Shown: one piece after another, positions 6,650-18,681 of the stretch
Position numbering within the stretch: position 1 is the first letter of the stretch
Layout of the letters: each line of letters opens with the position of its first letter
Assembly: GCA_965217895.1 (NCBI GenBank)
Contig: CBDCJV010000002.1
Coordinates: 2,368,001-2,432,000, forward strand
From: Waterburya sp.
GTDB lineage: Bacteria; Cyanobacteriota; Cyanobacteriia; Cyanobacteriales; Xenococcaceae
Direction: 5' to 3'
DNA: 64,000 nt
The notes under the pieces: model-generated
What the model was told of the DNA's origin: nothing
The model's database searches: none
The model's input: only the letters and a program-made list of their open reading frames with translations
Program-made: the position numbers and the translations under genes

Positions 6650-7198
6650 CGGGCGGTATAAACGTCGCAGCAAAGCTACGACGACACGCCCCCCAAGTTT
6701 GGGTAGGGCTGTTTCATTCTAGAGCTAAAGTGCGGTAAATTGATATAAAACCTAATTTAACCGCTCAATGACTTTAAAAAACTTTGATAAAAGCTTAATT
6801 GACTATTTGAAACAAATACCTGATGAGCGAAAAGCAGGTGAATGAATGAGCATCTCAGTATACTCACAATAGTCAAGGTCAATGGATTGCAATTGATGGC
6901 AAAAGTTTGAAAAATACTGTCAACGACTGTTATGGACAACAGCAAAACTTCGTCATGATGGTTTCGGCTTTGACTCATGAAGGCGGGGAAATTTTAGGCA
7001 TAAAAGTTAGGGAAAATAAGAAACAAAGTGAGATTGTCGCCGTGCAAGACTTATTAGAATTGCTGCATTTAAAAGGAGTGGTGTTCACGATGGATGCTCT
7101 ACATTGTCAAAAAAAACAGTCTCAGCAATTATCGACAGTGGTAATAACTACCTAATTGTGGTCAAAAGAAATCAAAAAACATTACATCGACAAATTGA

Positions 7199-7246
7199 GC
7201 GGAGGAAATGCGTGGGTTTCCCGCGCTTATTCCACTCCGCTGTTGA
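7199..7246. mobile_element. 48-bp in-frame hairpin insert (TCAA-bounded micro-element)
   Basis: GCGGAG...CTCCGC stem flanked by TTGA repeats; removal gives HRQIE-FQATST. Confidence 0.7.
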
Positions 7247-7465
7247 ATTTCAAGCAACAAGTACAAAGGCGATTAGTTGCTTTGAGCAGATCGAGAAGAC
7301 GAGAAATCGACTAACTCATCGAACTGTAGAAGTATTGGCTCCTCCATCAAACATTGATTCTCAATGGGTTGGAGTTCATAGTATCATCAAAATTTTCCGT
7401 TCGCGAACAAGAGGTAATCACGATTACGAATCGGATTCGGCGACTTATTATATTAGTTCTTTACC

Positions 7466-7828
7466 CAACTCCTTCGGAGTTAAGTAGCAAGTAGCGCGTT
7501 CTGGAGAACGCCGACATCGCTTCGCGATGGCGACACGCTCCAGCGTGTGCAAATAGCAGATAGCAATTAAGAAAAACTCCGAAGTTGGATATGCAGTCTC
7601 TTCATTGATGAGGAAAAGATGAAAAAATAATTCAACTCTCGAATACATGCGGGCAAGCCCTTTGTCTGACACAGGAGCTATCGCTCCATGTCGTCGTCTT
7701 CGACGACTTTGCAAGCTTTGCTTGCTGTGGCAGAGGTTGAACTTGCAGACGCGAAGCGCGTCTGGCCGTTGCGGAGCAACGTCGGCAGCCTCCAGGCTGC
7801 GCTACTTGTTATCTTGCTACTTGTGAAC
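7466..7828. mobile_element. Non-coding hairpin-rich element (family Z), copy 1
   Basis: Exact removal restores YISSL-PATSWLIPQGIGRHWGIEN; both ends shared with 58521-58770 (rc). Confidence 0.85.
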
Positions 7829-7896
7829 AGCAACTTCTTGGCTTATTCCCCAAGGTATTGGCCGACATTGGGGTATCGAGAATCGTTGGCATTGGG

Positions 7897-7938
7897 GAGG
7901 CACGGACGGCGAACCTGCGTCGCCGTATTGAGTGCCGT
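7897..7938. mobile_element. 42-bp hairpin insert
   Basis: GGCAC..ACGGCGA/TCGCCGT..GTGCC stems; removal restores HW-V-KDVV of the ISAs1 transposase. Confidence 0.75.
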
Positions 7939-8194
7939 TTAAGGATGTCGTAACGAAAGAAGATAACAGCCCTCAACTTCACGGCAAAGCATCCACAAAC
8001 ATCTCTTTGATTAAAAGTTGGGTTATTAACCTACTGAGAGTTCATGGTTTTGATTCTATGACTGAGGCAATCAGTTATTTAAGCCATAATTTGCCATTAT
8101 TACTTTCTTTGTGTCACTGATAGGTGTAGTGAATAGATTTATTCGCGATCGCATCTTCTATTTTGAGAATGAAACAGCCCTACCAAACTTGAGG

Positions 8195-8522
8195 GAACAA
8201 GATCTAAAAGTCCCTCAGAATTGAGGGATTTAGGGGGCGGTATTCATTCCCAGTCAAACAGATAAGCGATCGCTTGAGTCTTAATCTACGCTGTATACTT
8301 TACCTAAATTTATGGTTTTGCCCCCCTAGCCCCCCAAGTTTGGGGGGAACAAGATCTAAAAGTCTCCCAGGATTGGGGGATTTAGGGGGCGGTATTCATT
8401 CCCAGTCAAACAGATAAGCGATCGCTTGAGTCTTAATCTACGCTGTATACTTTCATCCCAAGCCTAGGGGAAACAAAATCCAAAAGTCCCCCAGGATTGG
8501 GGGATTTAGGGGGCGGTATTTG
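8195..8522. repeat. Tandem REP-like palindromic repeats (2 full units plus 1 partial)
   Basis: AACAAGATCTAAAAGTC...GGGATTTAGGGGGCGGTATTCATTCCCAGTCAAACAGATAAGCGATCGC...GTATACTTT at ~8196 and ~8348; partial unit at ~8472. Confidence 0.85.
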
Positions 8523-8549: not shown

Positions 8550-8909
<360 letters not shown>

Positions 8910-8930
8910 TTATAAGAATTAGACTTTCAC

Positions 8931-9032
8931 TATTTTACGTATATTCATCCATAAAGCTAGCCCTTCAGTTTATACATTTTATTTGTTCGTTTTATGATAT
9001 AGGATTTGGGCTTTGAGGCTCAAGGCGATCGC
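8931..9032. repeat. 102-bp direct repeat, copy 1 (glnB upstream region), ending in HIP1
   Basis: Near-identical to 10287-10388. Confidence 0.9.
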
Positions 9033-9151
9033 ACGTGCGTAGTGCGATCGAAGCTTTGGGGTTTCCTCAGGCGTTCATGTCGGACGTGGCGGAGTAATCT
9101 GTGACTGTCGAGTTATAATTTTGATCGAAATCGACAAATTAGAAAATAGTT

Positions 9152-9334
9152 ATGTCAACCCTTGAGCAAATTGAAGCAGCTATCCTTACACTTTCGCCAA
9201 ATGAGTTTCAACAACTCAGAAAGTGGCTTTTTGACCTGGATTATGAGCGTTGGGACGAGCAGTTAGAGCAGAATGTCGCAGACGGTAAGTTAGAGGCTTT
9301 AGCTGAAGAAGCGATCTCTCAATTCAAATTATAG
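9152..9334 (+). CDS. Small putative antitoxin, orphan and probably C-terminally truncated
   Basis: MSTLEQIEAAILTLSPNEFQQLRKWL..WDEQLEQNVADGKLEALAEEAI resembles small proteins that precede RelE/ParE-like toxins; no toxin follows. Confidence 0.6.
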   Translation: MSTLEQIEAAILTLSPNEFQQLRKWLFDLDYERWDEQLEQNVADGKLEALAEEAISQFKL

Positions 9335-9487
9335 ATTGTAAAGCGATCGCCCTAAAGAATTCCGATCGCGGATATCGCTACCTGTAGCTTTAGGATCGCT
9401 GAAATAACGATGTTATAATTATTTTCATAATCGGCGCGGTAACTTTTGATAACGAACGCAAAGGCTTCAAAGTATAACAGTACAACA

Positions 9488-9784
9488 ATGAGTAACATAC
9501 AAATAGAGTCCGACCTCAAAGAAATTCTTAATAAGCTGGAGCAAAAACTAGATCGCATCGAGAATAAGTTCGATCAAAAACTAGATCATCTTCAGAAAGA
9601 CGTTACTGATATAAATCTGAGATTAACCAAGGTAGAAACCAAACTTGACAGCACCGTAGAAGATATCAAGGAAATTAAAGGTTCACAAAAAGCGCAGATC
9701 TGGACGCTGATTGGAGTCTTGATTACTGCTGTTGCTGGGTTTCTCATAGCAGTTGGCAGATCTGTTTTTTCATTTAATCCTTAA
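9488..9784 (+). CDS. Coiled-coil protein with C-terminal membrane anchor
   Basis: Heptad-rich MSNIQIESDLKEIL..., then QIWTLIGVLITAVAGFLIAV. Confidence 0.75.
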   Translation: MSNIQIESDLKEILNKLEQKLDRIENKFDQKLDHLQKDVTDINLRLTKVETKLDSTVEDIKEIKGSQKAQIWTLIGVLITAVAGFLIAVGRSVFSFNP

Positions 9785-9796
9785 GATCAAATAGTA

Positions 9797-9970
9797 TAGG
9801 ACTTCCTCACTCGCCCCCTAAATCCCCCAAGACGAGCGACCCCCGCGCATGGTTCGACATCGGAAAGCATTCCCTTGCGCCTGACGGCGGCGCGGGGTCT
9901 TTCCTCAGTTTGACGGGCGTCATAAACGCCTGGGAAACCACAGGCGCAAGGGGGGGAACTTTCAATTCTT
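9797..9970. mobile_element. Degenerate copy of the 3365-type MITE with nested hairpins
   Basis: TAGGACTTCCTCACTCGCCCCCTAAATCCCCCAAGACGAGCGACCCCCGCGCATGGTTC matches 3365-3423. Confidence 0.75.
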
Positions 9971-10238
9971 GCAGTATTTTGACTCATTCTTCTTAAAATA
10001 GCAGCGCGAAAAACCTTGGAAATTTTGGCTTTACTCAGCGATCGCCGTAATGGTATAATTTTTTTATAATGGGAGTGGTGACTTCGATACATAACTCTAA
10101 GCACTTCCATTATGAAAATCTTAATTTCAATTAAACCACGTTTGGCGATCGCCAGTCAAGATTTTAATTTTTCAGTACAAAATAACTAATCATTTGTTTT
10201 ATTTGAAATAACTATTTTGAAATAAAACAAATGATTAG

Positions 10239-10266
10239 GTAAGGGCGAACGGCGAAACGCCCCTAC
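10239..10266. repeat. GTAG-type REP-like palindrome
   Basis: GTAAGGGCG...CGCCCCTAC; similar to 57426-57454. Confidence 0.55.
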
Positions 10267-10286
10267 AATGAAAATTTTAGTTCTAA

Positions 10287-10388
10287 TATTTTACGTATAT
10301 TCATCCAGAAAGCTAGCCCTTCAGTTTATACATTTCATTTGTTCGTTTTATGATGTGGGATTTGGGCTTTTAGACTGAAGGCGATCGC
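10287..10388. repeat. 102-bp direct repeat, copy 2, ending in HIP1
   Basis: Near-identical to 8931-9032. Confidence 0.9.
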
Positions 10389-10727
10389 TTCACCGATGCA
10401 GTCGCTCTTTGTAGGAAACCAACAAGACCCCTAAAGGCGCGTACTGCATCGCCTTTTTTTTGCCAATTTTGAAACTAAATATTAGTAAAAATACAGATGT
10501 TTTTTATCAATTGATATTTGGTAATTATCTTCATCCTAAATTTATCAAATTCAAGTCAACAATATCATTTCTTATTATTGAAAGTTCAGTATTTTCAGGA
10601 GTTTACGTTGCCTATTCGTCACTGTTATTGTTGATTCACTGGCAAATTAAAGTCCAACAAAGACTAAAGACTCTCAAATTAACTAATACAAAAACTATTT
10701 ATTTAGAAACAAAGGAAATCAATTCAA

Positions 10728-12170
10728 ATGCTTAAATTTATTAATTCTATAAAATACAGTTCAACTATTCTTTTAGGTGTTTTGATAGCAAGCTCTATAG
10801 CTGCCAAACCTGCATCTGCTGATAATAATGCTTTGACAGTCACAATAGAAGCACCAACAATTCAAACTGCACTATCAAAAACAAATACTTATGTAGTTGA
10901 TTTTAATGATCAATCTGGAACAACAGGATTTATTAAAACCAATGGTACTGGTACTAATGCTACTACCTATACTTATGGTGGCAGTTTAACAATTCTAAAT
11001 GCAGATCAATGGGGCGGTGCAAACAAAACTAAATATATTACCCAATCTCAAAACATCAGCAGCTTCAACGTAAAAGTTAATAAAGACCAAAAATACTTTG
11101 GCTTTTGGTGGTCAGCAGGTGATAGTGCCAATAAGATAATTTTCAAAAATAAAGGTGCGGAGGTAGCTGTTTTTCAGACAAAAGATTTAGTAGGCTTTAT
11201 CAACAGCCGACCCGCTGCTGAAAAAACTTTATACTATGGAAATCCTAATTGTCTTATTGCTGGTGTTGCTCCTTGTGGTACTAATACAGGTCATAAAGCT
11301 GAACCATTTGCTTATGTCAACGTCTATTTTAATAACCAAGTATACGATGAAATCGTGATTGAAACTACATCATCTTCAAAATTTGAATCGGATAATCACA
11401 CTTTTTCAGCACAAAATCAAACTGTTACGGGTGTAAATGTACCACAACTAGCTAGTGCTGCGAATGACCTGCTTTCTACTAGTGAAGATGATAGTATTAC
11501 TGGCAATGTGATTACCAATGATTTAGGTGTAGGCTTGAGTGTCACGAAGGTCAATAATGTTACAGCTAATGTAGGTAAGCAAATTACTTTGTCTTCTGGT
11601 GCTTTAGTAAAACTCAATAACGATGGAACTTTTACTTATAATCCTAACAGCAAGTTTGAGCGTCTCAACCCTGGTGAGACTGATACTGATACTTTTTCCT
11701 ACACCATTAAAGATAATCAGAACAACGTTAGTACTGCCACTGTAACCATGACTATTAATGGTGCTGCGGATAACCCTGTAGCGGTAGATGATACGGCTAT
11801 TACAGATGAAGATACAGTTAAAGAGATTTCTGTTCTAGAGAATGATAGCGATCCTAATACTCCTAAAGAAAATCTAACTATCACTCAAATTGGTAGTTCC
11901 GCAATTAGTGTTGGAAGTCCAGTTACACTTCGTTCTGGTGCAAGAGTTGAGCTTATTCTAAACACAGATTCGTCAAAATATAGTACTGAAGGAAAGTATA
12001 TTTTGAAATACGATCCAAGCCCTAGTGCTTCTTTAAATCTTCTTAACAATGGACAACAGGCTACTCCTCCAGAAACCTTTACTTATACAGTGAGCGATCC
12101 TGAAGGTAATACTGGTCGAGGTAATGTAACTGTTACAGTTAACGGTATCACAGATACTTATTCTGACTAA
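10728..12170 (+). CDS. Secreted surface protein: N-terminal domain (Npun_F0296-like) plus two cadherin/Ig-like repeats
   Basis: Signal peptide ending ASA; YFGFWWSAGD and FESDNHTF; GNVITND..DGTFTYNPN..DTFSYTI and PVAVDD..VLEND..FTYTVSD repeats. Confidence 0.8.
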   Translation: MLKFINSIKYSSTILLGVLIASSIAAKPASADNNALTVTIEAPTIQTALSKTNTYVVDFNDQSGTTGFIKTNGTGTNATTYTYGGSLTILNADQWGGANKTKYITQSQNISSFNVKVNKDQKYFGFWWSAGDSANKIIFKNKGAEVAVFQTKDLVGFINSRPAAEKTLYYGNPNCLIAGVAPCGTNTGHKAEPFAYVNVYFNNQVYDEIVIETTSSSKFESDNHTFSAQNQTVTGVNVPQLASAANDLLSTSEDDSITGNVITNDLGVGLSVTKVNNVTANVGKQITLSSGALVKLNNDGTFTYNPNSKFERLNPGETDTDTFSYTIKDNQNNVSTATVTMTINGAADNPVAVDDTAITDEDTVKEISVLENDSDPNTPKENLTITQIGSSAISVGSPVTLRSGARVELILNTDSSKYSTEGKYILKYDPSPSASLNLLNNGQQATPPETFTYTVSDPEGNTGRGNVTVTVNGITDTYSD

Positions 12171-12204
12171 CATTAACTAGTTAAACTTTAAATAATTCTT
12201 CAAA

Positions 12205-12441
12205 GCGATCGCACGTGCATAGTGCGATCGCTTTTTTCTTTGATGTGGTAATAGTGCGATCAAATTTTAATTATTCCATCGCCAGGTAAGATAGATAGTT
12301 TAAAGAAACAAACCAAGTTATAGCGATCGCGTAGCTTTTAGATCGCTTGTTTATGAGGTGATAATGCGATCGCTTTTTTGTTTAAAATACTATTTGCTTG
12401 AATTCAGGCGATTACGAGATCGTGTAGCCGAAGGCGATCGC
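12205..12441 (+). repeat. HIP1-jointed composite spacer (modules A-B-C-B'-D)
   Basis: 12232-12373 recurs at 15113-15254; 12374-12441 recurs at 14359-14426; A module (HIP1-ACGTGCRTAGT-HIP1) recurs at 9025, 13117, 13694 and, as a variant, 15326. Confidence 0.9.
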
Positions 12442-12482
12442 TCTTTCTTGATTTTGTATATACAATTATGTATATTCTAATT

Positions 12483-12776
12483 ATGGAATTTGAGTGGGAC
12501 GAGGATAAAAATCAAAGTAATATCACCAAGCACGGTATTGACTTTCAGCAAGCGAAGCGAGTTTTTGAAGATCCTAATATATTAACTTATGAAGACACCC
12601 GCTTAAACTATAAAGAAATAAGAGAGATATCTGTCGGACAATTACTATTAACAACTCAGCAACAAATAATCATCGTGGTGGTTATTCATACCGATAGAGA
12701 TGGAAAAGTCAGGCTAATTTCAGCTAGAAGAGCGAGTAAACGAGAGAGAAAACTATATGAACAACAGTCAATTTAG
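12483..12776 (+). CDS. brnT: BrnT-family toxin
   Basis: MEFEWDEDKNQSNITKHGIDF...RLISARRA. Confidence 0.92.
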   Translation: MEFEWDEDKNQSNITKHGIDFQQAKRVFEDPNILTYEDTRLNYKEIREISVGQLLLTTQQQIIIVVVIHTDRDGKVRLISARRASKRERKLYEQQSI

Positions 12777-13080
12777 TCCTAATATGTCTCTTGAAGAAAG
12801 AGAAAAAAAACTGGTAGAAATGTCCGATCGCGATATTGACTTCTCCGATATTCCAGAGTTAGATGAAGCCTTTTTTAATAATGCCAAACTGGTGAAAAAG
12901 AAACCAGCGACAGAGGCAATATCCATAAGAGTTGATACTGATACCCTAGAGTGGCTTCGTAAGACAGCCAAAAACAATCCAGAAATCAAAGGATATCAGA
13001 CTTTAATCAACGATGTACTAAGAACTTATATGATTCATCAAATAAAGAATCGAGAATACCCTACGAAATCATCGACATAA
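12757..13080 (+). CDS. brnA: BrnA-family antitoxin
   Basis: IDFSDIPEL, ISIRVDTDTLEW, GYQTLINDVLR; overlaps brnT. Confidence 0.9.
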   Translation: MNNSQFSPNMSLEEREKKLVEMSDRDIDFSDIPELDEAFFNNAKLVKKKPATEAISIRVDTDTLEWLRKTAKNNPEIKGYQTLINDVLRTYMIHQIKNREYPTKSST

Positions 13081-13207
13081 GAAAAGTTATTTCATTCTCA
13101 AACTAAATATTTAAAAGCGATCGCACGTGCATAGTGCGATCGCTTTTTTGGTAGTTTATTGAGAATAATAATGCGATCGTCACACTAAATAAAATACATT
13201 GAGATTT

Positions 13208-13435
13208 TTATAGGCTATTAATAAACTCTTCTGGACTTACTCGTGCTTGTTTGAGAATACCGCTTAAAGTTCCTATTTTTAACTCTCGATGTATAGGTAC
13301 AACACAACCTATTTGTCCATCTGGCGTTATTTTTTTCATAATGACATGACTATCAGTTTGACGGGTTTTCTCAAAGCCCAAACTTTCTAATGCTTTAATT
13401 GCTTTCTTGCTAGAAATTCTAGGCAATCTAGGCAT
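13208..13435 (-). CDS. hicA: HicA-family toxin (QTDSH variant)
   Basis: MPRLPRISSKKAIKALESLGF..RQTDSH..VPIHRELKIGTLSGILKQA. Confidence 0.88.
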   Translation of the reverse strand: MPRLPRISSKKAIKALESLGFEKTRQTDSHVIMKKITPDGQIGCVVPIHRELKIGTLSGILKQARVSPEEFINSL

Positions 13436-13637
13436 AGCTAACATCCATAGTGGTGATGTATCTAGGAGAGGTTTCTGGTAAAGGAAATTATTCTAAATAC
13501 AATCTCGTAGCTTCTTTTAAACCTGAAACAGCTTGTTCGATTGTTTCTCCTTGATCTACCGTTCCAACTTCAGGACATTCGGCAATATACATATCGTCTT
13601 CTCTATAAACTAATACAGTAAAGCTACGGTTTTTCAT
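13428..13637 (-). pseudogene. hicB: HicB-family antitoxin with premature TAA
   Basis: MKNRSFTVLVYREDDMYIAECPEVGTVDQGETIEQAVSGLKEATRLYLE*FPLPETSPRYITTMDVSYA*; stop at 13488-13490. Confidence 0.85.
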
Positions 13638-13822
13638 ATTGATTTACTTGCAATTAATTTTTTTATAATTTTAGCTGGAAAAAACTGTTAAGGGCGATCG
13701 CACGTGCGTAGTGCGATCGCTTTTCTATTTGAATTGATAAATAAGGCGATCGCCAATTAAACTATCAGAAAAATTGCAAGTATTTTAGAATTGAGAGAAT
13801 CATATTTTAATAATTATCATTC

Positions 13823-14029
13823 ATGATAGAAATTGTTTTTTTGGTTGAAGACGATCTTGATGGAGGTTATACAGCAAAGGCATTAGGTGAATCTATATTT
13901 ACTCAAGCAGATGATTTGGACAGTCTTAAAAAAATGATACGTGATGCGGTTGACTGTCATTTTACAGAAGATCAAAAACCAAAAGTAATTCGATTGCATA
14001 TTGTTCGAGATGAGGTAATTGCATCGTGA
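13823..14029 (+). CDS. HicB-like antitoxin
   Basis: EIVFLVEDDLDGGYTAKALGESIFTQAD..IRDAVDCHF; overlaps the HicA start. Confidence 0.8.
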   Translation: MIEIVFLVEDDLDGGYTAKALGESIFTQADDLDSLKKMIRDAVDCHFTEDQKPKVIRLHIVRDEVIAS

Positions 14030-14268
14030 GATTACCGCGAGATATATCAGGAAAAGACTTAATTAAAGCTCTTTCTTGTCTTGATTATGAAGTTACTCGT
14101 CAGACTGGTAGTCATATTAGGTTGACCAGTAAACGTAAAGGGGAACACCATATTACAGTCCCAGCACACGATCCAATAAAAATAGGAACTCTCAACGCTA
14201 TTCTCAAAGAAATTGCTGAACATAACGGTCTAGATCGTGCTGAATTAATTAGAATGTTATTTGGCTGA
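14026..14268 (+). CDS. hicA: HicA-family toxin
   Basis: RQTGSHIRL..HHITVPAHDPIKIGTL. Confidence 0.9.
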   Translation: MRLPRDISGKDLIKALSCLDYEVTRQTGSHIRLTSKRKGEHHITVPAHDPIKIGTLNAILKEIAEHNGLDRAELIRMLFG

Positions 14269-14616
14269 AGCCTTTTTTTTACTCCTTTTTATGATTTTAG
14301 CTGGAAAAAACTGTTAAGGGAGATCGCTCTTCTATTTGATGTGGTAATAATGCGATGCTTTTTTGTTTAAAATACTATTTGCTTGAATTCAGGCGATTAC
14401 GAGATCGTGTAGCTGAAGGCGATCGCTTTCTATAAGAGAATAGTCATTTTTTATCAGGATTAGAATAGTGGATAAGGGCGTAAATAAAGTAGCCATTTGT
14501 TTAGCTTGAAACCTTGACGAGATCTAAACTCATTACTTGTTACTCATTATTCGTTACTTCCGCATAGCGGTAATAGTACTATTATTCCAACACTAAGAAA
14601 GAGGAACGTAAAGCGA

Positions 14617-14799
14617 TTGATAACCTCTAAGCAAGCATTAAGAGCTTGTATTCTCTGCGAATTTTTAACCTCAAAAGGTATGCCAATTAGGGTTTTTCAA
14701 TACCAAGACACAGAAAGATTGATTCGGATAGAAGCAGGTTTCAGAACACGACAAATTAGAATTGTAATTAACGAAGGAGGAAAATTTAAATATGTCTAA
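14617..14799 (+). CDS. Small protein, DUF6888-like (putative TA component)
   Basis: 60 aa; overlaps the next gene; pattern TxKQAxxxxxxCxxLT...I.I..GK resembles cyanobacterial DUF6888 from memory. Confidence 0.6.
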   Translation: MITSKQALRACILCEFLTSKGMPIRVFQYQDTERLIRIEAGFRTRQIRIVINEGGKFKYV

Positions 14800-14989
14800 A
14801 TCTCTTGAAACGATGGGCATCAAGGAGCTTCAGCAGTACATGAAAGACCATCAAGATAACCATGATGAATGGCAAAAAGCGTATAGCTTATTTGCTCAAA
14901 AGTCAGATTGGCAGGAAATACCAGAAGGAGCGACTTGGGATGAAGAAAAACAATTTATTGAAGATTTTGTTACTCAGGTAATAAATTGA
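14792..14989 (+). CDS. Small protein, DUF6887-like (putative TA component)
   Basis: MxxKELQQYMKDHQDNHDEW pattern; AGGAGG RBS. Confidence 0.6.
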   Translation: MSKSLETMGIKELQQYMKDHQDNHDEWQKAYSLFAQKSDWQEIPEGATWDEEKQFIEDFVTQVIN

Positions 14990-15421
14990 TCGCAAGTTTA
15001 TTTGTTCACTGCTGAGATGATAATAGCGATTATCATAGAGTTATACATAAGCGATTACGCGATCGTTTATCCTTTAGGGCTTTTTTTTTTGATGTGGTAA
15101 TAATGCGATCGCTTTTCTATTTGATATGGTAATAATGCGATGGGATTTTAGTTATTCTATTGTCAGGTAAGATAGACAGTCTAAACGAACAAACCAAGTC
15201 GTAGCGATCGCGTAGCTTTTTGATCGCTTTTTTATGAGGTGATAATGCGATCGCTAATCTCAAAACAAGATGATTACTAATTGGAGTTGTAGTAACGTTA
15301 ATTCCTCGTCGCTTTATATTCGTCTGCGATCGCCTTACATAGTGCGATCGCTTTTTTCTTTGATGTGGTAATAATGCGATCGCTTTTTAGATACTGTTTA
15401 AAATACTTGTTTTTTATCAAT

Positions 15422-15802
15422 TTATTCTTGAGAATTTCGCAACAAAGGTAAACGGCGCATTCTAATTTTTCTTGAATCAACAGTTACAGCAACACCCTTT
15501 TGTAACTCCTCATAACATTTATTTATTACATTTAGAAGCAATTTTGTTAGAGCTTCAGCACGTAATCCTTCTACGCGAATTCTAATCACAGAAGGAGAAG
15601 AGGCATTGCTTAAAGCAAGTAGAGAATGAAAGTCAGCATCTAAAGTAACTACAACACAATTGATTTCTCTGGCTTTTTGAATAATTTCAATATCTTCAGC
15701 AGCCCATAAACCAATTTCGCCAACATGGATGGTGTCAATTTTATGAGCTTTTAATAATTTTGCTGCTGAACAAGGTAATCCTTGATCAAGCAACAGTTTC
15801 AT
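15422..15802 (-). CDS. DUF5615 PIN-like protein (VapC45-like)
   Basis: MKLLLDQGLP..HVGEIGL..AEDIEI..VVTLDADF..PSVIRIR. Confidence 0.9.
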   Translation of the reverse strand: MKLLLDQGLPCSAAKLLKAHKIDTIHVGEIGLWAAEDIEIIQKAREINCVVVTLDADFHSLLALSNASSPSVIRIRVEGLRAEALTKLLLNVINKCYEELQKGVAVTVDSRKIRMRRLPLLRNSQE

Positions 15803-16028
15803 AGTTATTTGGCAGTTCAATAATTTGATCATCTAAAGACAAAGAGGCAAAAAGTAAAGCCTGTTGAATGTCTTCTTCTTCTAGTTCAGGAAACTCTTGA
15901 TATAATTCCTCTCGGTTGGGATAAGTAGCAATCAAATTGATTACTCGACGAACTGTCAAGCGAAGATTACGAATGCAGGGTTGCCCATTCATTTTGCTAG
16001 GATTGCTAGTAATGCGATCGAGTTTCAT
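15786..16028 (-). CDS. DUF433 antitoxin-like protein
   Basis: RITSNPSKMNGQPCIRNLRLTV..FPELEEEDIQQAL. Confidence 0.9.
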   Translation of the reverse strand: MKLDRITSNPSKMNGQPCIRNLRLTVRRVINLIATYPNREELYQEFPELEEEDIQQALLFASLSLDDQIIELPNNYETVA

Positions 16029-16226
16029 TTTGAGTAAGCTACTATACAAATTTTTAACTATCTATTTAATAAATTTACCAAAATAAAGCTGTAATGAATA
16101 AATTGTTGCCTACCACAAATAAGTAAGATGCGATATCGGTAATTTTTAAGATTTCCTTAGAAAAGAGATCGCTTTTCTATTTGATGCGGTGACAATGCGA
16201 TCGCAGATCTCAAAACAATATGATTA

Positions 16227-16574
16227 CTAAATAAATTCTACTTTTCCTTTAATATCCTCTAATTCTACCCATTCCTAAATTAAAGCTAAGGTATTAATAT
16301 ATTAATAATTTCGCCAATAGTTCTACTTCTTTGACGACAATATGTAAGTAATTCCACCATGATTAACACCAGCTTGATGAAGCCTTAAAAAATCATCATC
16401 TTGGGTAAAAATAACCCTTTTTTCCGTAATTGCAAATGCAACTTGCTCTTCATCAGATGCACTAATCAAGCTTATTTCTGGAGTTGCAGTAACGTCAATT
16501 CCTCGTCGTTTTAAACCGTCTGCGATCGCATTACTTACATTTTCATCCAGATGAAACTTAATCCTATTGAACAT
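16227..16574 (-). pseudogene. DUF5615 PIN-like protein with disrupted C-terminus
   Basis: FHLDENV..IFTQDDDFL; a 4-bp TTAC duplication near 16345 shifts the frame; remnants YCRQRSRTIGEII and EDIKGKVEFI* lie downstream with further lesions. Confidence 0.8.
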
Positions 16575-16881
16575 TTCCTTGTTTTAGTTTGCGCTGGAGA
16601 ATTGAAGGTGTTTTGCCAGCCAACTCTTGAGCAGAAGTTTCACTATCTCTAATATTTTGCCTAATTTCTGCTAGATGGTCATAATAATAAGACAATGCAG
16701 CGTACACATCAGCTAGGGTAATACTAGGGTAATGATAAATAATTTCGTCTGCCGAAAGCCCCATCATTTCGTACCAAACAACTATATCCTGTACTCTAAT
16801 ACGATGCCCAGCGATACGAGGTTTTCCACCGCATACTCCTGGGGTGATTTCAATGTGTTGGGTTATTGATGTTGAAGACAC
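16564..16881 (-). CDS. DUF433 antitoxin-like protein
   Basis: IEITPGVCGGKPRIAGHRIRVQDI..LADVYAALSYYYDH; probable GTG start at 16881. Confidence 0.9.
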   Translation of the reverse strand: MSSTSITQHIEITPGVCGGKPRIAGHRIRVQDIVVWYEMMGLSADEIIYHYPSITLADVYAALSYYYDHLAEIRQNIRDSETSAQELAGKTPSILQRKLKQGNVQ

Positions 16882-17115
16882 TATTTTTGTTTGCTGCTCA
16901 ATTATTGAAATATTTATAATTCTACAAACTATAGAATTAATTTGGTATAAGTCTGGCTTGGTAAACAACTACTGTGAAACTACTGGTTTTCATCTCGATC
17001 TAGCTTTAAGTTTTTTGGTAATTTCATCTGGTCAAGGTTGTTGAAAGCGATTGCACGGTCGCTTTTTTCGGGGATTATTTACAGCATTTATACGTAAACG
17101 ATTAACAATTAACAA

Positions 17116-17547
17116 TTAACCAAAATAATCATCTTTCATAATTTGCTCAACCTCAACAAAACCCGATTCAGGAATTTCAAAGTCAAACACCATAGTAGCG
17201 ATCGCATCCTGATAAAGATCGAGATATTCAGATTTGAGATAATTCTTCAGGCTGGGATTTTTCTTAAGGATTCGATTAATACGATTGCGGAAGTTAACAA
17301 CTTCTTGCTGCCATCCTTTGCGACATCTTTCTACTTCCGAATTCCAGTACTTTAGCTTGAGGATATGCTCAATCAATCGCTGCATATAACTGTCTAGCGA
17401 GCGCTTTTCTGACTTCCCCATGTCGTCGATTTCATCTAACAGATTATCCCAGTCCATATTTTCAAAATCTTTATTTTGAATAGCTTCTTTTATCTTTTCA
17501 ACCCAAAGGTTGAAGTCGCGATCGTGTAACTGTTTTAAATTAGTCAT
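17116..17547 (-). CDS. DUF29 family protein
   Basis: DFNLW..DWDNLLDEIDDMGKSEKR..LIEHILKL..W..NPSLKNY. Confidence 0.9.
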   Translation of the reverse strand: MTNLKQLHDRDFNLWVEKIKEAIQNKDFENMDWDNLLDEIDDMGKSEKRSLDSYMQRLIEHILKLKYWNSEVERCRKGWQQEVVNFRNRINRILKKNPSLKNYLKSEYLDLYQDAIATMVFDFEIPESGFVEVEQIMKDDYFG

Positions 17548-17678
17548 GAGCTTTAATTTTTTGGACAATTATTTTTTATTGCTTTTATTATTGATGTTAA
17601 TAAAAAGGGTACAAAGCGATTATGCGATCGCTTCTATATCTTTGATCGTTCTCTCAAGATAAAAAGTAAATATCTTAT

Positions 17679-17766
17679 AAAAGTAATTCGATTGCATATT
17701 GTTCGAGATGAGGTTATTGCCTCGTGAAATTACCGCCAGATATATCAGGAAAAGATCTAATTAAAA
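17679..17766 (+). pseudogene. Orphan fragment of the hicB-like/hicA junction
   Basis: Near-identical to 13981-14067. Confidence 0.85.
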
Positions 17767-17775
17767 ATATTGCTG

Positions 17776-18681
17776 TTACTTTAAAATTTCGTTCACCTGA
17801 ACAACCAAATTGATCGCAGCTTGTCGAATAGTATCTTTATTTGAATCTTCGCTACCATACAGATGAGGATACATAATTGCCCTAGAACTACTAACTACTG
17901 CACCCAAACCGTCGGCATTAAAACAGGCTTTGATTCCTTTGTTCCCCCCTCCCTGTGCGCCAACACCTGGGACAAGAAATAGACTATTAGGTAATTGTTG
18001 ACGTAGGCGAATAGCTGCTTCAGGATAGGTTGCGCCGACGACTGCGCCAATAGCACTATAGCCTGATTCGCCAATACTTTTATCAGAAGCAGGTTTAATT
18101 AAATCGGCAATAATTTCATAGAGATATTTGCCATCTATTTGCTGTTCCTGAATTATTGCAGCACCAGGATTAGAAGTTTTAACACAGACGAATATACCTT
18201 TACCCCATTTTGTTGCTTCTTCAAAAAATGGTTCGAGACAGTCTTTGCCAAGGTAAGGAACAATGGTAATGGCATCAGCTTCTAAAGGGCGTGCTGGTTC
18301 ACCTGATAAATAGCCTTGGGCGTAAGCTGTGGCTGTAGAGGCTATATCTCCCCGTTTTACATCTAAAACTATCAACAAATCGCGAGCGCGCGCTGCCATA
18401 ATTGTCTTTTCTAGTGCCACAATTCCTGCCGAACCAAACAACTCATAATAAGCACTTTGGGGTTTTACAGCAGGGACAAGATCGGCAACGGCATCTAACA
18501 CCATCAGGTTATATTGATAGATTGCCTCAGCGCAATCAGCTAAACTGCTTTTTTTAGTAATACCTTGTTTTTGCAACCAGCTTTCAGGCATTCTCGCTAA
18601 TGCAGGATCTAATCCGACAATGCAAGAAGTTTTTTTAATCTGGATCTTCTCGATTAGGCGATCAATAAATATTTTTTTCAT
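17776..18681 (-). CDS. pyrF: Orotidine-5'-phosphate decarboxylase (subfamily 2)
   Basis: VGLDP, KPQSAYYE, DVKRGDIASTA, KTSNP, VVGAT, LVPGVGAQGG, SSSRAI. Confidence 0.93.
   Translation of the reverse strand: MKKIFIDRLIEKIQIKKTSCIVGLDPALARMPESWLQKQGITKKSSLADCAEAIYQYNLMVLDAVADLVPAVKPQSAYYELFGSAGIVALEKTIMAARARDLLIVLDVKRGDIASTATAYAQGYLSGEPARPLEADAITIVPYLGKDCLEPFFEEATKWGKGIFVCVKTSNPGAAIIQEQQIDGKYLYEIIADLIKPASDKSIGESGYSAIGAVVGATYPEAAIRLRQQLPNSLFLVPGVGAQGGGNKGIKACFNADGLGAVVSSSRAIMYPHLYGSEDSNKDTIRQAAINLVVQVNEILK

What the first reader, a model, noticed from the sequence alone, without database searches (positions are those of the whole stretch)
8931..17770. Integron-like array of toxin-antitoxin cassettes joined at HIP1 sites, with no integrase
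Seen: between glnB and pyrF lie six TA or putative TA pairs (BrnTA, two HicAB, a DUF6888/6887-like pair, two DUF433/DUF5615), plus DUF29, an orphan antitoxin, a coiled-coil gene and a surface protein, in mixed orientation. The spacers are assembled from a few reused modules, all on the same strand whatever the gene orientation, and most module borders are HIP1 or one-off HIP1. A = HIP1-ACGTGCRTAGT-HIP1 (9025, 12205, 13117, 13694, variant 15326). B = HIP1-T-rich-TGATGTGGTAATAAT-HIP1 and variants (12224, 12341, 13136, 13713, 14320, 15081, 15105, 15222, 15344, 16165). C = 12262-12346 and 15143-15227. D = 12374-12441 and 14359-14426. E = 13668-13701 and 14294-14327. Module order differs between spacers. 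Known: HIP1 has long been proposed as a recombination or methylation-linked site with unresolved function, and TA-rich cassette arrays are typical of chromosomal integrons. Inference: this is a cassette capture/shuffling platform in which HIP1-bounded units act like attC sites, driven in trans or by microhomology recombination during transformation.
Basis: partly seen in the sequence, partly recalled or inferred. Interest (0 to 1): 0.88.

Follow-up and report, generated by a model that had tools for sequence, protein, structure and literature searches.

The report
HIP1-jointed shuffling toxin-antitoxin arrays
A cyanobacterium and its relatives keep rows of toxin-antitoxin gene pairs that are swapped and reordered, but never flipped, often at copies of the abundant eight-letter repeat HIP1, with no integron enzyme in sight, which offers a concrete place to test what this long-unexplained repeat does.

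Summary
The 8.8-kb stretch is the most HIP1-dense in its genome, and modules A-E occur nowhere else in it. Other species of the genus carry different cassettes at the same site, upstream of glnB; pyrF is not a shared flank. Shared cassettes keep one orientation (40 of 40), but their order is random (32 concordant, 33 discordant pairs). Some are 98-100% identical between species whose pyrF is 85% identical. HIP1 is a preferred joint, not the only one: 25 of 142 sharp homology ends (16 expected), against 4 of 114 outside arrays. It is not an integron: no IntI and no attC-like site were found. Module A is a HIP1-pair terminator, and C and E are left-over cassette ends. A second array upstream of pilA has its own cassettes and its own 34-37-bp HIP1 linkers. 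Similar linker chains lie beside TA genes in two other families. Best explanation: an integrase-free exchange hotspot, where anchored recombination between strains resolves at HIP1 linkers. A dedicated HIP1 recombinase is not excluded. The scan earlier noted a like design (PeSL cassettes) in cyanophages, but not this system.

The parts
8550..8888 (-). glnB (PII), the conserved anchor; the array lies upstream of it
   Evidence: Pfam P-II; its first ~80 upstream bases are conserved in 24 of 25 loci shown, then the sequence varies
8912..9032 (+). 121-bp glnB-proximal piece ending in HIP1, duplicated at 10268-10388 around the inserted genes
   Evidence: G019 has a shorter, HIP1-free duplication around the same orphan cassette
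9025..9050 (+). module A (HIP1-pair hairpin), proximal copy
9152..9334 (+). orphan putative antitoxin; in G019 it is followed by a ParE-like toxin fragment
   Evidence: no Pfam hit; 95% to G019; ParE_like
9491..9784 (+). coiled-coil protein with Pfam XhlA domain
   Evidence: 57.9 bits, cut-off 34.7
10038..10165 (+). HIP1-flanked ~130-bp element with a -10-like box; 3 more copies in the genome, 75% copies in relatives' pilA arrays
   Evidence: function not tested
10728..12170 (+). variable secreted surface protein (Npun_F0296 domain + Big_9/cadherin repeats); relatives have other N-terminal domains
   Evidence: family in 19 of 27 glnB loci
12205..12441 (+). spacer A-B-C-B'-D; A is terminator-like, C is the promoter end of a cassette intact in G019
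12434..13124 (+). BrnT/BrnA cassette, HIP1 to HIP1
   Evidence: same borders in G017 and G020 with different neighbours
13208..13701 (-). HicA1 / broken HicB1 cassette; module E (13668-13701) is its promoter end
13694..13753 (+). module A plus B variant between divergent genes
13823..14268 (+). putative HicB2 / HicA2 cassette, 98% identical in G020
14286..14426 (+). spacer E-B-D (E is a remnant copy)
14617..14989 (+). DUF6888/DUF6887 cassette, 98-100% identical in G017
15075..15383 (+). spacer B-B-C-B'-[remnant]-A-B; 15247-15333 is an internally deleted copy of the DUF5615b gene joined to A at the gene's internal HIP1
15422..16028 (-). DUF433a/DUF5615a cassette; its 3' end meets HIP1 at 15376 as in G020
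16165..16900 (-). B variant and DUF433b / broken DUF5615b cassette
17116..17547 (-). DUF29 gene
17679..17774 (+). remnant of the HicB2/HicA2 junction with no HIP1 at either end
   Evidence: D10
17776..18681 (-). pyrF, distal flank in this genome only

Best explanation
An integrase-free exchange hotspot whose joints are mostly supplied by HIP1. SHOWN: the site upstream of glnB holds a different row of surface-protein and TA genes in each species; each cassette keeps its orientation while order is random; cassettes move between species; HIP1 is over-used at junctions. INFERRED: DNA from another strain's array (natural transformation, or exchange between chromosome copies) pairs at a shared anchor: the glnB promoter, the surface gene's conserved end, a shared cassette or a linker. 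The other end resolves at the best short homology available. In ~30-40% GC spacers that is HIP1 with its polar flanks (TARK-HIP1-TTTT), or a whole A/B linker. Donor and recipient arrays point the same way, so orientation is kept while repeated gains and losses randomise order. Deletions between HIP1 sites or other microhomologies leave the cassette-end remnants (C, E, 15247-15333) and chains of gene-less linkers. Module A began as the terminator of the surface-protein genes and was copied along. TA pairs persist because they resist loss.
For: Orientation 40 of 40 same, order 32 concordant and 33 discordant. Cassettes 98-100% identical across species with pyrF 85-86% and glnB 95%. HIP1-to-HIP1 borders with swapped neighbours. 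Enrichment of ends at HIP1 in arrays but not outside (4 of 114, 3.9 expected). Polar flanks: right TTTT 64 against left AAAA 25; TARK-HIP1-TTT 30 forward against 11 reverse. Intragenic HIP1 used as a joint (also G019/G020 AbrB-PIN). Many non-HIP1 truncations and duplications of the anchor. The glnB and pilA arrays have separate linker families and share no TA cassette, as anchored same-locus exchange predicts. A HIP1-pair hairpin follows most surface genes. ComEC is present. Literature passages: HIP1 raises integration efficiency in a homology- and methylation-dependent way (10.1101/2024.09.10.611283); a 352-bp deletion between HIP1 sites is on record (cited in PMC13756078); one-sided anchored illegitimate recombination is known in transformable bacteria (PMC6382021).
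Against: No event was observed, only end products between species. The breakpoint excess is modest once local HIP1 density is allowed for (p 0.011 to 0.16). dprA is split over two frames in this genome, which weakens current transformation in this strain. The narrow linker lengths (17-19, 30-35, 34-37 bp) are not explained by microhomology alone. Random order with 40 of 40 fixed orientation is also what a polar site-specific system gives.
Confidence: 0.5

Rival explanations
1. A dedicated trans-acting enzyme (a host tyrosine recombinase, or a nuclease guided by methylated HIP1) excises and re-inserts HIP1-bounded cassettes. The linkers give polarity and array specificity, much as matching spacers do for pdif sites.
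For: Fixed orientation with random order; exact HIP1-to-HIP1 cassettes; narrow linker periods in two independent arrays against a flat background; gene-less linker chains of 2-6 in other families; 10 tyrosine recombinases in the genome; site-specific recombination at HIP1 in PCC 7002 and precise SDR5 insertion into HIP1, as cited in PMC4390886.
Against: No IntI over cut-off; no conserved enzyme gene beside the glnB array in 27 loci; hairpin loops of 7-12 nt with free sequence; 117 of 142 sharp ends off HIP1; pools not shared between arrays.
Confidence: 0.25
2. An ordinary variable island. TA genes pile up next to a fast-evolving surface gene by generic recombination; HIP1 is dense there because terminators and tandem slippage products contain it, and junctions hit HIP1 mostly because it is everywhere in the spacers.
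For: At lower identity thresholds the excess is not significant (8 of 29, p 0.16; 12 of 41, p 0.09). HIP1-pair hairpins with A/T flanks also occur singly elsewhere, in 41 of 61 genomes of the family. A third TA cluster at the minor pilin locus is built mostly from partial YoeB duplicates, with one repeated HIP1 joint. Integrase-free hotspots are common (PMC5635113).
Against: Eightfold HIP1 excess in spacers; 42 non-array hits to the same TA families are not flanked this way (by inspection); intragenic HIP1 joints; whole-block replacement at two flanking core genes would not randomise single-cassette order, and the distal flank differs between species.
Confidence: 0.17
3. The linkers are BIME-like mosaics built by a REP-associated tyrosine transposase (RAYT) acting on single-stranded hairpins, and cassettes move with them.
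For: RAYT-like ORFs and GTAG-type palindromes flank the pilA array; NCBIfam REP_Tyr_transpos 65.5 bits.
Against: The score is under the cut-off of 80; no match to the REP probe within 4 mismatches lies in the window; linkers show no structure beyond the HIP1 pair; RAYT cleavage at HIP1 is not known to me.
Confidence: 0.08

Closest known systems
Chromosomal integrons / CALINs (PMC4889954, passages)
   Same: Row of TA-rich cassettes, fixed orientation, variable order, repeated array-specific joints, divergent gene at the proximal end
   Different: No IntI in the genome, no attC boxes or extended hairpin, many chimeric remnants, the proximal gene is glnB or pilA
PeSL cassettes of T4-type phages (PMC2839356, abstract and outline)
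   Same: Promoter and terminator-hairpin units as joints; shuffling by recombination between them without an integrase
   Different: Chromosomal, TA cargo, joints built on an 8-bp genome-wide palindrome, much shorter homology
Integrase-free HGT hotspots (PMC5635113, passages) and homology-facilitated illegitimate recombination (PMC6382021, passages)
   Same: Variable locus beside a core gene, no mobility gene, transformable host type
   Different: Only one flank is conserved across species; single cassettes are reordered; a defined motif is over-used at joints
pdif modules of Acinetobacter plasmids (PMC13141974, passages)
   Same: TA-bearing modules shuffled by host enzymes in trans; matching spacers decide partners
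   Different: No Xer arms found; no fixed 6-bp spacer; modules here are not inverted
SDR5 of Nostocaceae (not read; as cited in PMC4390886, PMC5861425, PMC13756078)
   Same: A ~20-30-nt unit sitting precisely within or between HIP1
   Different: Outside Nostocaceae, confined to cassette arrays rather than dispersed; sequence not compared

Membership tests
Integron | Integron integrase (IntI) | tested here: not met
   TIGR02249: 7 matches, best 54.7 bits, cut-off 265; catalytic parts of 10 recombinases score best to Xer or phage types
Integron / CALIN | attC sites (R''/R' boxes, long imperfect hairpin) | tested here: not met
   0 box pairs in 11 spacers on both strands, by a pattern recalled from memory; no extra folding of linkers; IntegronFinder's covariance model was not available
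Integron | Cassettes in fixed orientation and variable order | tested here: met
   40 of 40 and 32/33; 13 of 13 and 9/3 at pilA
Integron | attI site with new cassettes added proximally | tested here: inconclusive
   A HIP1 lies ~135 bp upstream of glnB in several species and the sequence behind it varies; order of events not shown
pdif modules | XerC/XerD arms around a 6-bp spacer | tested here: not met
   Recalled 11-nt XerD arm, up to 2 mismatches: 44 matches in the window, 57 expected, none at a junction; cyanobacterial dif may differ
PeSL | Joints carry a terminator hairpin | tested here: met
   A folds at -22 to -23 kcal/mol, z -3.8 to -5.7, followed by T runs; prediction only
PeSL | Joints carry a strong promoter; mini-circles form | not testable with these tools
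   Promoter scan at chance level, 29 against 33.6; contigs cannot show circles
Integrase-free hotspot | Two conserved flanking core genes with raised recombination | tested here: inconclusive
   Only glnB is shared between species; no same-species panel was available
SDR5 | 21-nt consensus with conserved secondary structure inside HIP1 | not testable with these tools
   Source paper not held; linkers here are unstructured
REP/BIME with RAYT | REP palindromes and a RAYT gene at the locus | tested here: inconclusive
   Present at pilA (65.5 bits, cut-off 80), not at glnB
Rfam families | Match at gathering score | tested here: not met
   3 weak matches, all far below gathering

The most novel reading that the evidence does not exclude
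Cyanobacteria run an integron analogue built on HIP1. A host enzyme guided by (methylated) HIP1, with short locus-specific linkers setting polarity and partner choice, captures and reorders TA cassettes at several chromosomal sites per genome across the order. This would be a first natural, gene-level function for HIP1.
Probability: 0.25. Interest if true: 0.92.

Novelty: new variant of a known kind. Interest (0 to 1): 0.74.

Why it matters
The papers read here describe HIP1's function as unresolved after about 30 years; the evidence for recombination at it that I saw comes from plasmid constructs and one deletion. These arrays are natural records of repeated gain, loss and reordering with junctions on HIP1, at defined loci, replicated at two sites in one genus and apparently in other families. 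That makes the question directly testable (mutate the HIP1 sites, remove methylation, remove RecA). It also suggests how cyanobacteria collect their many TA pairs next to variable surface genes without integrons. I found no description of such arrays in five searches; subscription journals and bioRxiv supplements were not searchable.

Tried and rejected
(1) Classical integron: no IntI, no attC. (2) pdif: XerD arm at chance level. (3) glnB-pyrF as a conserved interval: rejected. (4) Cassette inversion at HIP1: the 'INVERTED' rows came from my orienting L074 by module A; by module B and by cassette direction it is colinear, and it was left out of the orientation count. (5) HIP1 as a genome-wide breakpoint: 4 of 114 ends, 3.9 expected. 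(6) Folded linkers as attC-like substrates: mean z 0.3 to -0.5. (7) Promoter scan: chance level. (8) Module A in metagenome contigs: 0 matches. The narrow hairpin consensus was found in 3 of 201 genomes of the order, all in this genus. (9) glnB arrays in other genera of the family: none in 3 of 3. (10) Sequencing runs: no RNA holder listed. Contigs of 4 runs show alternative joints, 7 of the 15 shown having an end at or within about 10 bases of an array HIP1. These come from related organisms at 85% likeness, and the module-B ends are ambiguous, so they are not evidence of excision in this strain; X1/X2 may be the source sample and X4 repeats G017's junctions. (11) ESM Atlas on the surface protein's N-terminus: nothing at 0.9 or above. 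(12) The idea that 10113 starts a truncated ASCH gene was dropped; the piece is a dispersed small element. (13) Earlier scan notes by place and by a second word set: nothing.
Full report
1. Observation. The window is G000:C2:2368001-2432000; record titles of close relatives give the genus Waterburya. The stretch has 26 HIP1, more than any of 588 equal bins, and 24 of them lie in 3152 bp of spacers where 3.1 are expected. A and B patterns match only here; C, D and E have two copies each, both here. Two antitoxin or toxin genes are broken (HicB1, DUF5615b).

2. What the modules are. A is a hairpin of two HIP1 with A and T runs outside (z -3.8 to -5.7). The same kind of hairpin, with loops of 7-12 freely varying bases, follows most surface-protein genes at this locus across the genus. 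It also occurs singly elsewhere, in 41 of 61 genomes of the family. It is best read as a terminator (inference). B is a gene-less 30-35-bp unit between two HIP1 that does not fold further. C is the promoter end of a cassette intact in G019. E is the promoter end of HicB1. The piece 15247-15333 is an internally deleted copy of the DUF5615b gene, joined to an A variant at the gene's own internal HIP1. The spacers are thus mosaics of cassette ends and linkers.

3. Relatives. pyrF was not linked to glnB in 20 of 20 loci, several of them short. glnB was found in 35 of 39 genus genomes. I fetched 29 upstream regions, dropped 4 because they were short and one more (L108) for the same reason, and compared 27 loci including the window, G019 and G020. 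Of the 27, 19 carry the variable surface-protein family, with PA14, DUF1194, DUF4114 or Npun_F0296 domains. Of 18 glnB-anchored arrays tested with 16 cassette probes, 11 hold two or more of the probed cassettes, 1 holds one and 6 hold none. All 40 cross-genome hits have the probe's orientation; pair order is concordant 32 times and discordant 33 times, over 21 different cassette pairs. Kin are not independent, so these are counts, not tests. DUF6888/87 is 98-100% identical to G017 and HicB2/A2 98% to G020, while pyrF is 85-86% and glnB 95% identical, which points to recent transfer. G020 also has two pieces 40 and 80 kb away among IS remnants; whether these are a broken array or separate insertions is open. 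Three genomes of other genera in the family have no array at glnB.

4. Breakpoints. BrnTA runs from HIP1 12434 to HIP1 13117 in three species, with three different left and two different right neighbours. The DUF2283, DUF6887-type and DUF433a cassettes also end on HIP1 with different neighbours. Counted without choosing, de-duplicated ends within 7 bases of HIP1 in both genomes were 5 of 11 at 92% identity or more (1.6 expected from local density, p 0.011), 6 of 16 at 90% (p 0.026), 8 of 29 at 88% (p 0.16) and 12 of 41 at 85% (p 0.09). A second method, added afterwards, gave 25 of 142 within 4 bases (16.2 expected, p 0.015); its ends include IS insertions, gene edges and surface-gene interiors. 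Outside arrays the count was 4 of 114, 3.9 expected. HIP1 is therefore preferred, array-specifically, but most ends are elsewhere. Its flanks are polar.

5. Replicates. Upstream of the major pilin gene, G000, G017, G019 and G023 hold a second array of TA pairs. Its 13 of 13 shared blocks keep orientation, order is 9 concordant and 3 discordant, and many blocks end at or near HIP1. Its linkers form a different family of 34-37 bp, while HIP1 spacing in the rest of the chromosome is flat. The two pools share no TA cassette, only a 75%-identical 176-bp non-gene piece. A third TA cluster at the minor pilins is made largely of partial duplicates. Chains of three HIP1 at linker spacing occur in 98 of 151 genomes of the order (the reversed-pattern control says nothing about HIP1-rich backgrounds). 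I picked 14 such loci from 8 genomes of two other families, favouring places with several chains, and scanned 100 ORFs (a subset of the 110 small ORFs listed, plus flanking large ones). Of the 14, 8 have clear TA families beside the chains, 1 a putative pair, 3 other accessory families (DUF2887, DUF4365, Uma2) and 2 none. Shuffling was not tested there.

6. Enzymes. There is no IntI, and the 10 tyrosine recombinases are all distant. No enzyme gene is conserved beside the glnB array. ComEC is present and dprA is split over two frames. A RAYT-like ORF lies beside pilA, under the family cut-off.

7. Mechanism. Fixed orientation excludes rejoining at the bare palindrome, which would flip cassettes (inference). 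Random order excludes simple loss from one ancestral array. Separate pools in one genome argue that longer, locus-specific homology chooses the partner. Remnants, anchor duplications and intragenic joints fit anchored, microhomology-resolved exchange better than a precise enzyme. I put this at 0.5, a dedicated HIP1-guided enzyme at 0.25, an ordinary island with HIP1 as bystander at 0.17, and RAYT at 0.08.

8. Literature seen. Passages only: PMC4390886, 10.1101/2024.09.10.611283, PMC13756078, PMC5635113, PMC4889954, PMC13141974, PMC6382021, PMC4963859, PMC5861425. Abstract and outline: PMC2839356. Not read, known only as cited in those: Elhai 2008, Akiyama 1998, Robinson 1997, Gupta 1993. PMC5861425 states that no SDR-like repeat was found outside Nostocaceae. 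Searches for HIP1 with TA genes, cassettes or linkers gave no description of such arrays. The attC boxes, the XerD arm and the REP/RAYT background are recalled. Supplements were not read; those of the HIP1 papers could list such repeats.

9. Verdict. The feature is real and larger than first seen. It works like an integron array or PeSL row, but it is a member of neither. It is a new variant of integrase-free cassette hotspots, with HIP1 as the favoured joint. Interest 0.74.

Noticed in passing
L125 (G000:C2:3517000-3530000); L126, L129, L130: Second TA array upstream of the major pilin genes, with its own 34-37-bp HIP1 linkers, REP-like palindromes and RAYT-like ORFs; orientation fixed, order shuffled
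   Followed up: yes
L119:5897-11913 (G000:C2 ~4227.9-4233.9 kb): TA cluster at the minor type IV pilin locus with three or four partial YoeB/YefM copies and a repeated 68-bp HIP1-led joint
   Followed up: partly
window 10728-12170 and homologues in 19 loci: Secreted proteins with unrelated middle domains mostly end in a short motif such as YSD, YAD or FAD right before the stop; possibly an undescribed sorting signal
   Followed up: no
window 10038-10165: HIP1-flanked ~130-bp element with a -10-like box and a conserved short reading frame; 3 more copies in the genome and copies in relatives' pilA arrays; could be a small RNA or small-peptide unit
   Followed up: partly
G000:C2:1742166-1742796: dprA is split over two reading frames (real or assembly error)
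   Followed up: partly
G000:C2:5148403-5151826 (L077, L081, L082): Three adjacent tyrosine recombinase genes, a triple-integrase element
   Followed up: no
L161, L162 (G147, G069): Three tandem DUF2887 genes behind a phycobiliprotein gene, each separated by chains of 2-6 HIP1 linkers
   Followed up: partly
L165, L166, L169 (G096, G069): Long arrays of TA pairs and XisH/XisI separated by HIP1 linker chains in another family
   Followed up: partly
window 6907-8120 and 8200-8520: Broken IS (DDE) remnant and tandem copies of a palindromic dispersed repeat downstream of glnB
   Followed up: no
L095:1623-6194: In another clade glnB is flanked by an SNF2 helicase carrying an intein with a LAGLIDADG domain
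   Followed up: no
L120 (G000:C2 ~4484.9-4487.7 kb): YoeB/YefM and DUF6888/87 pairs next to what looks like a CRISPR array
   Followed up: no
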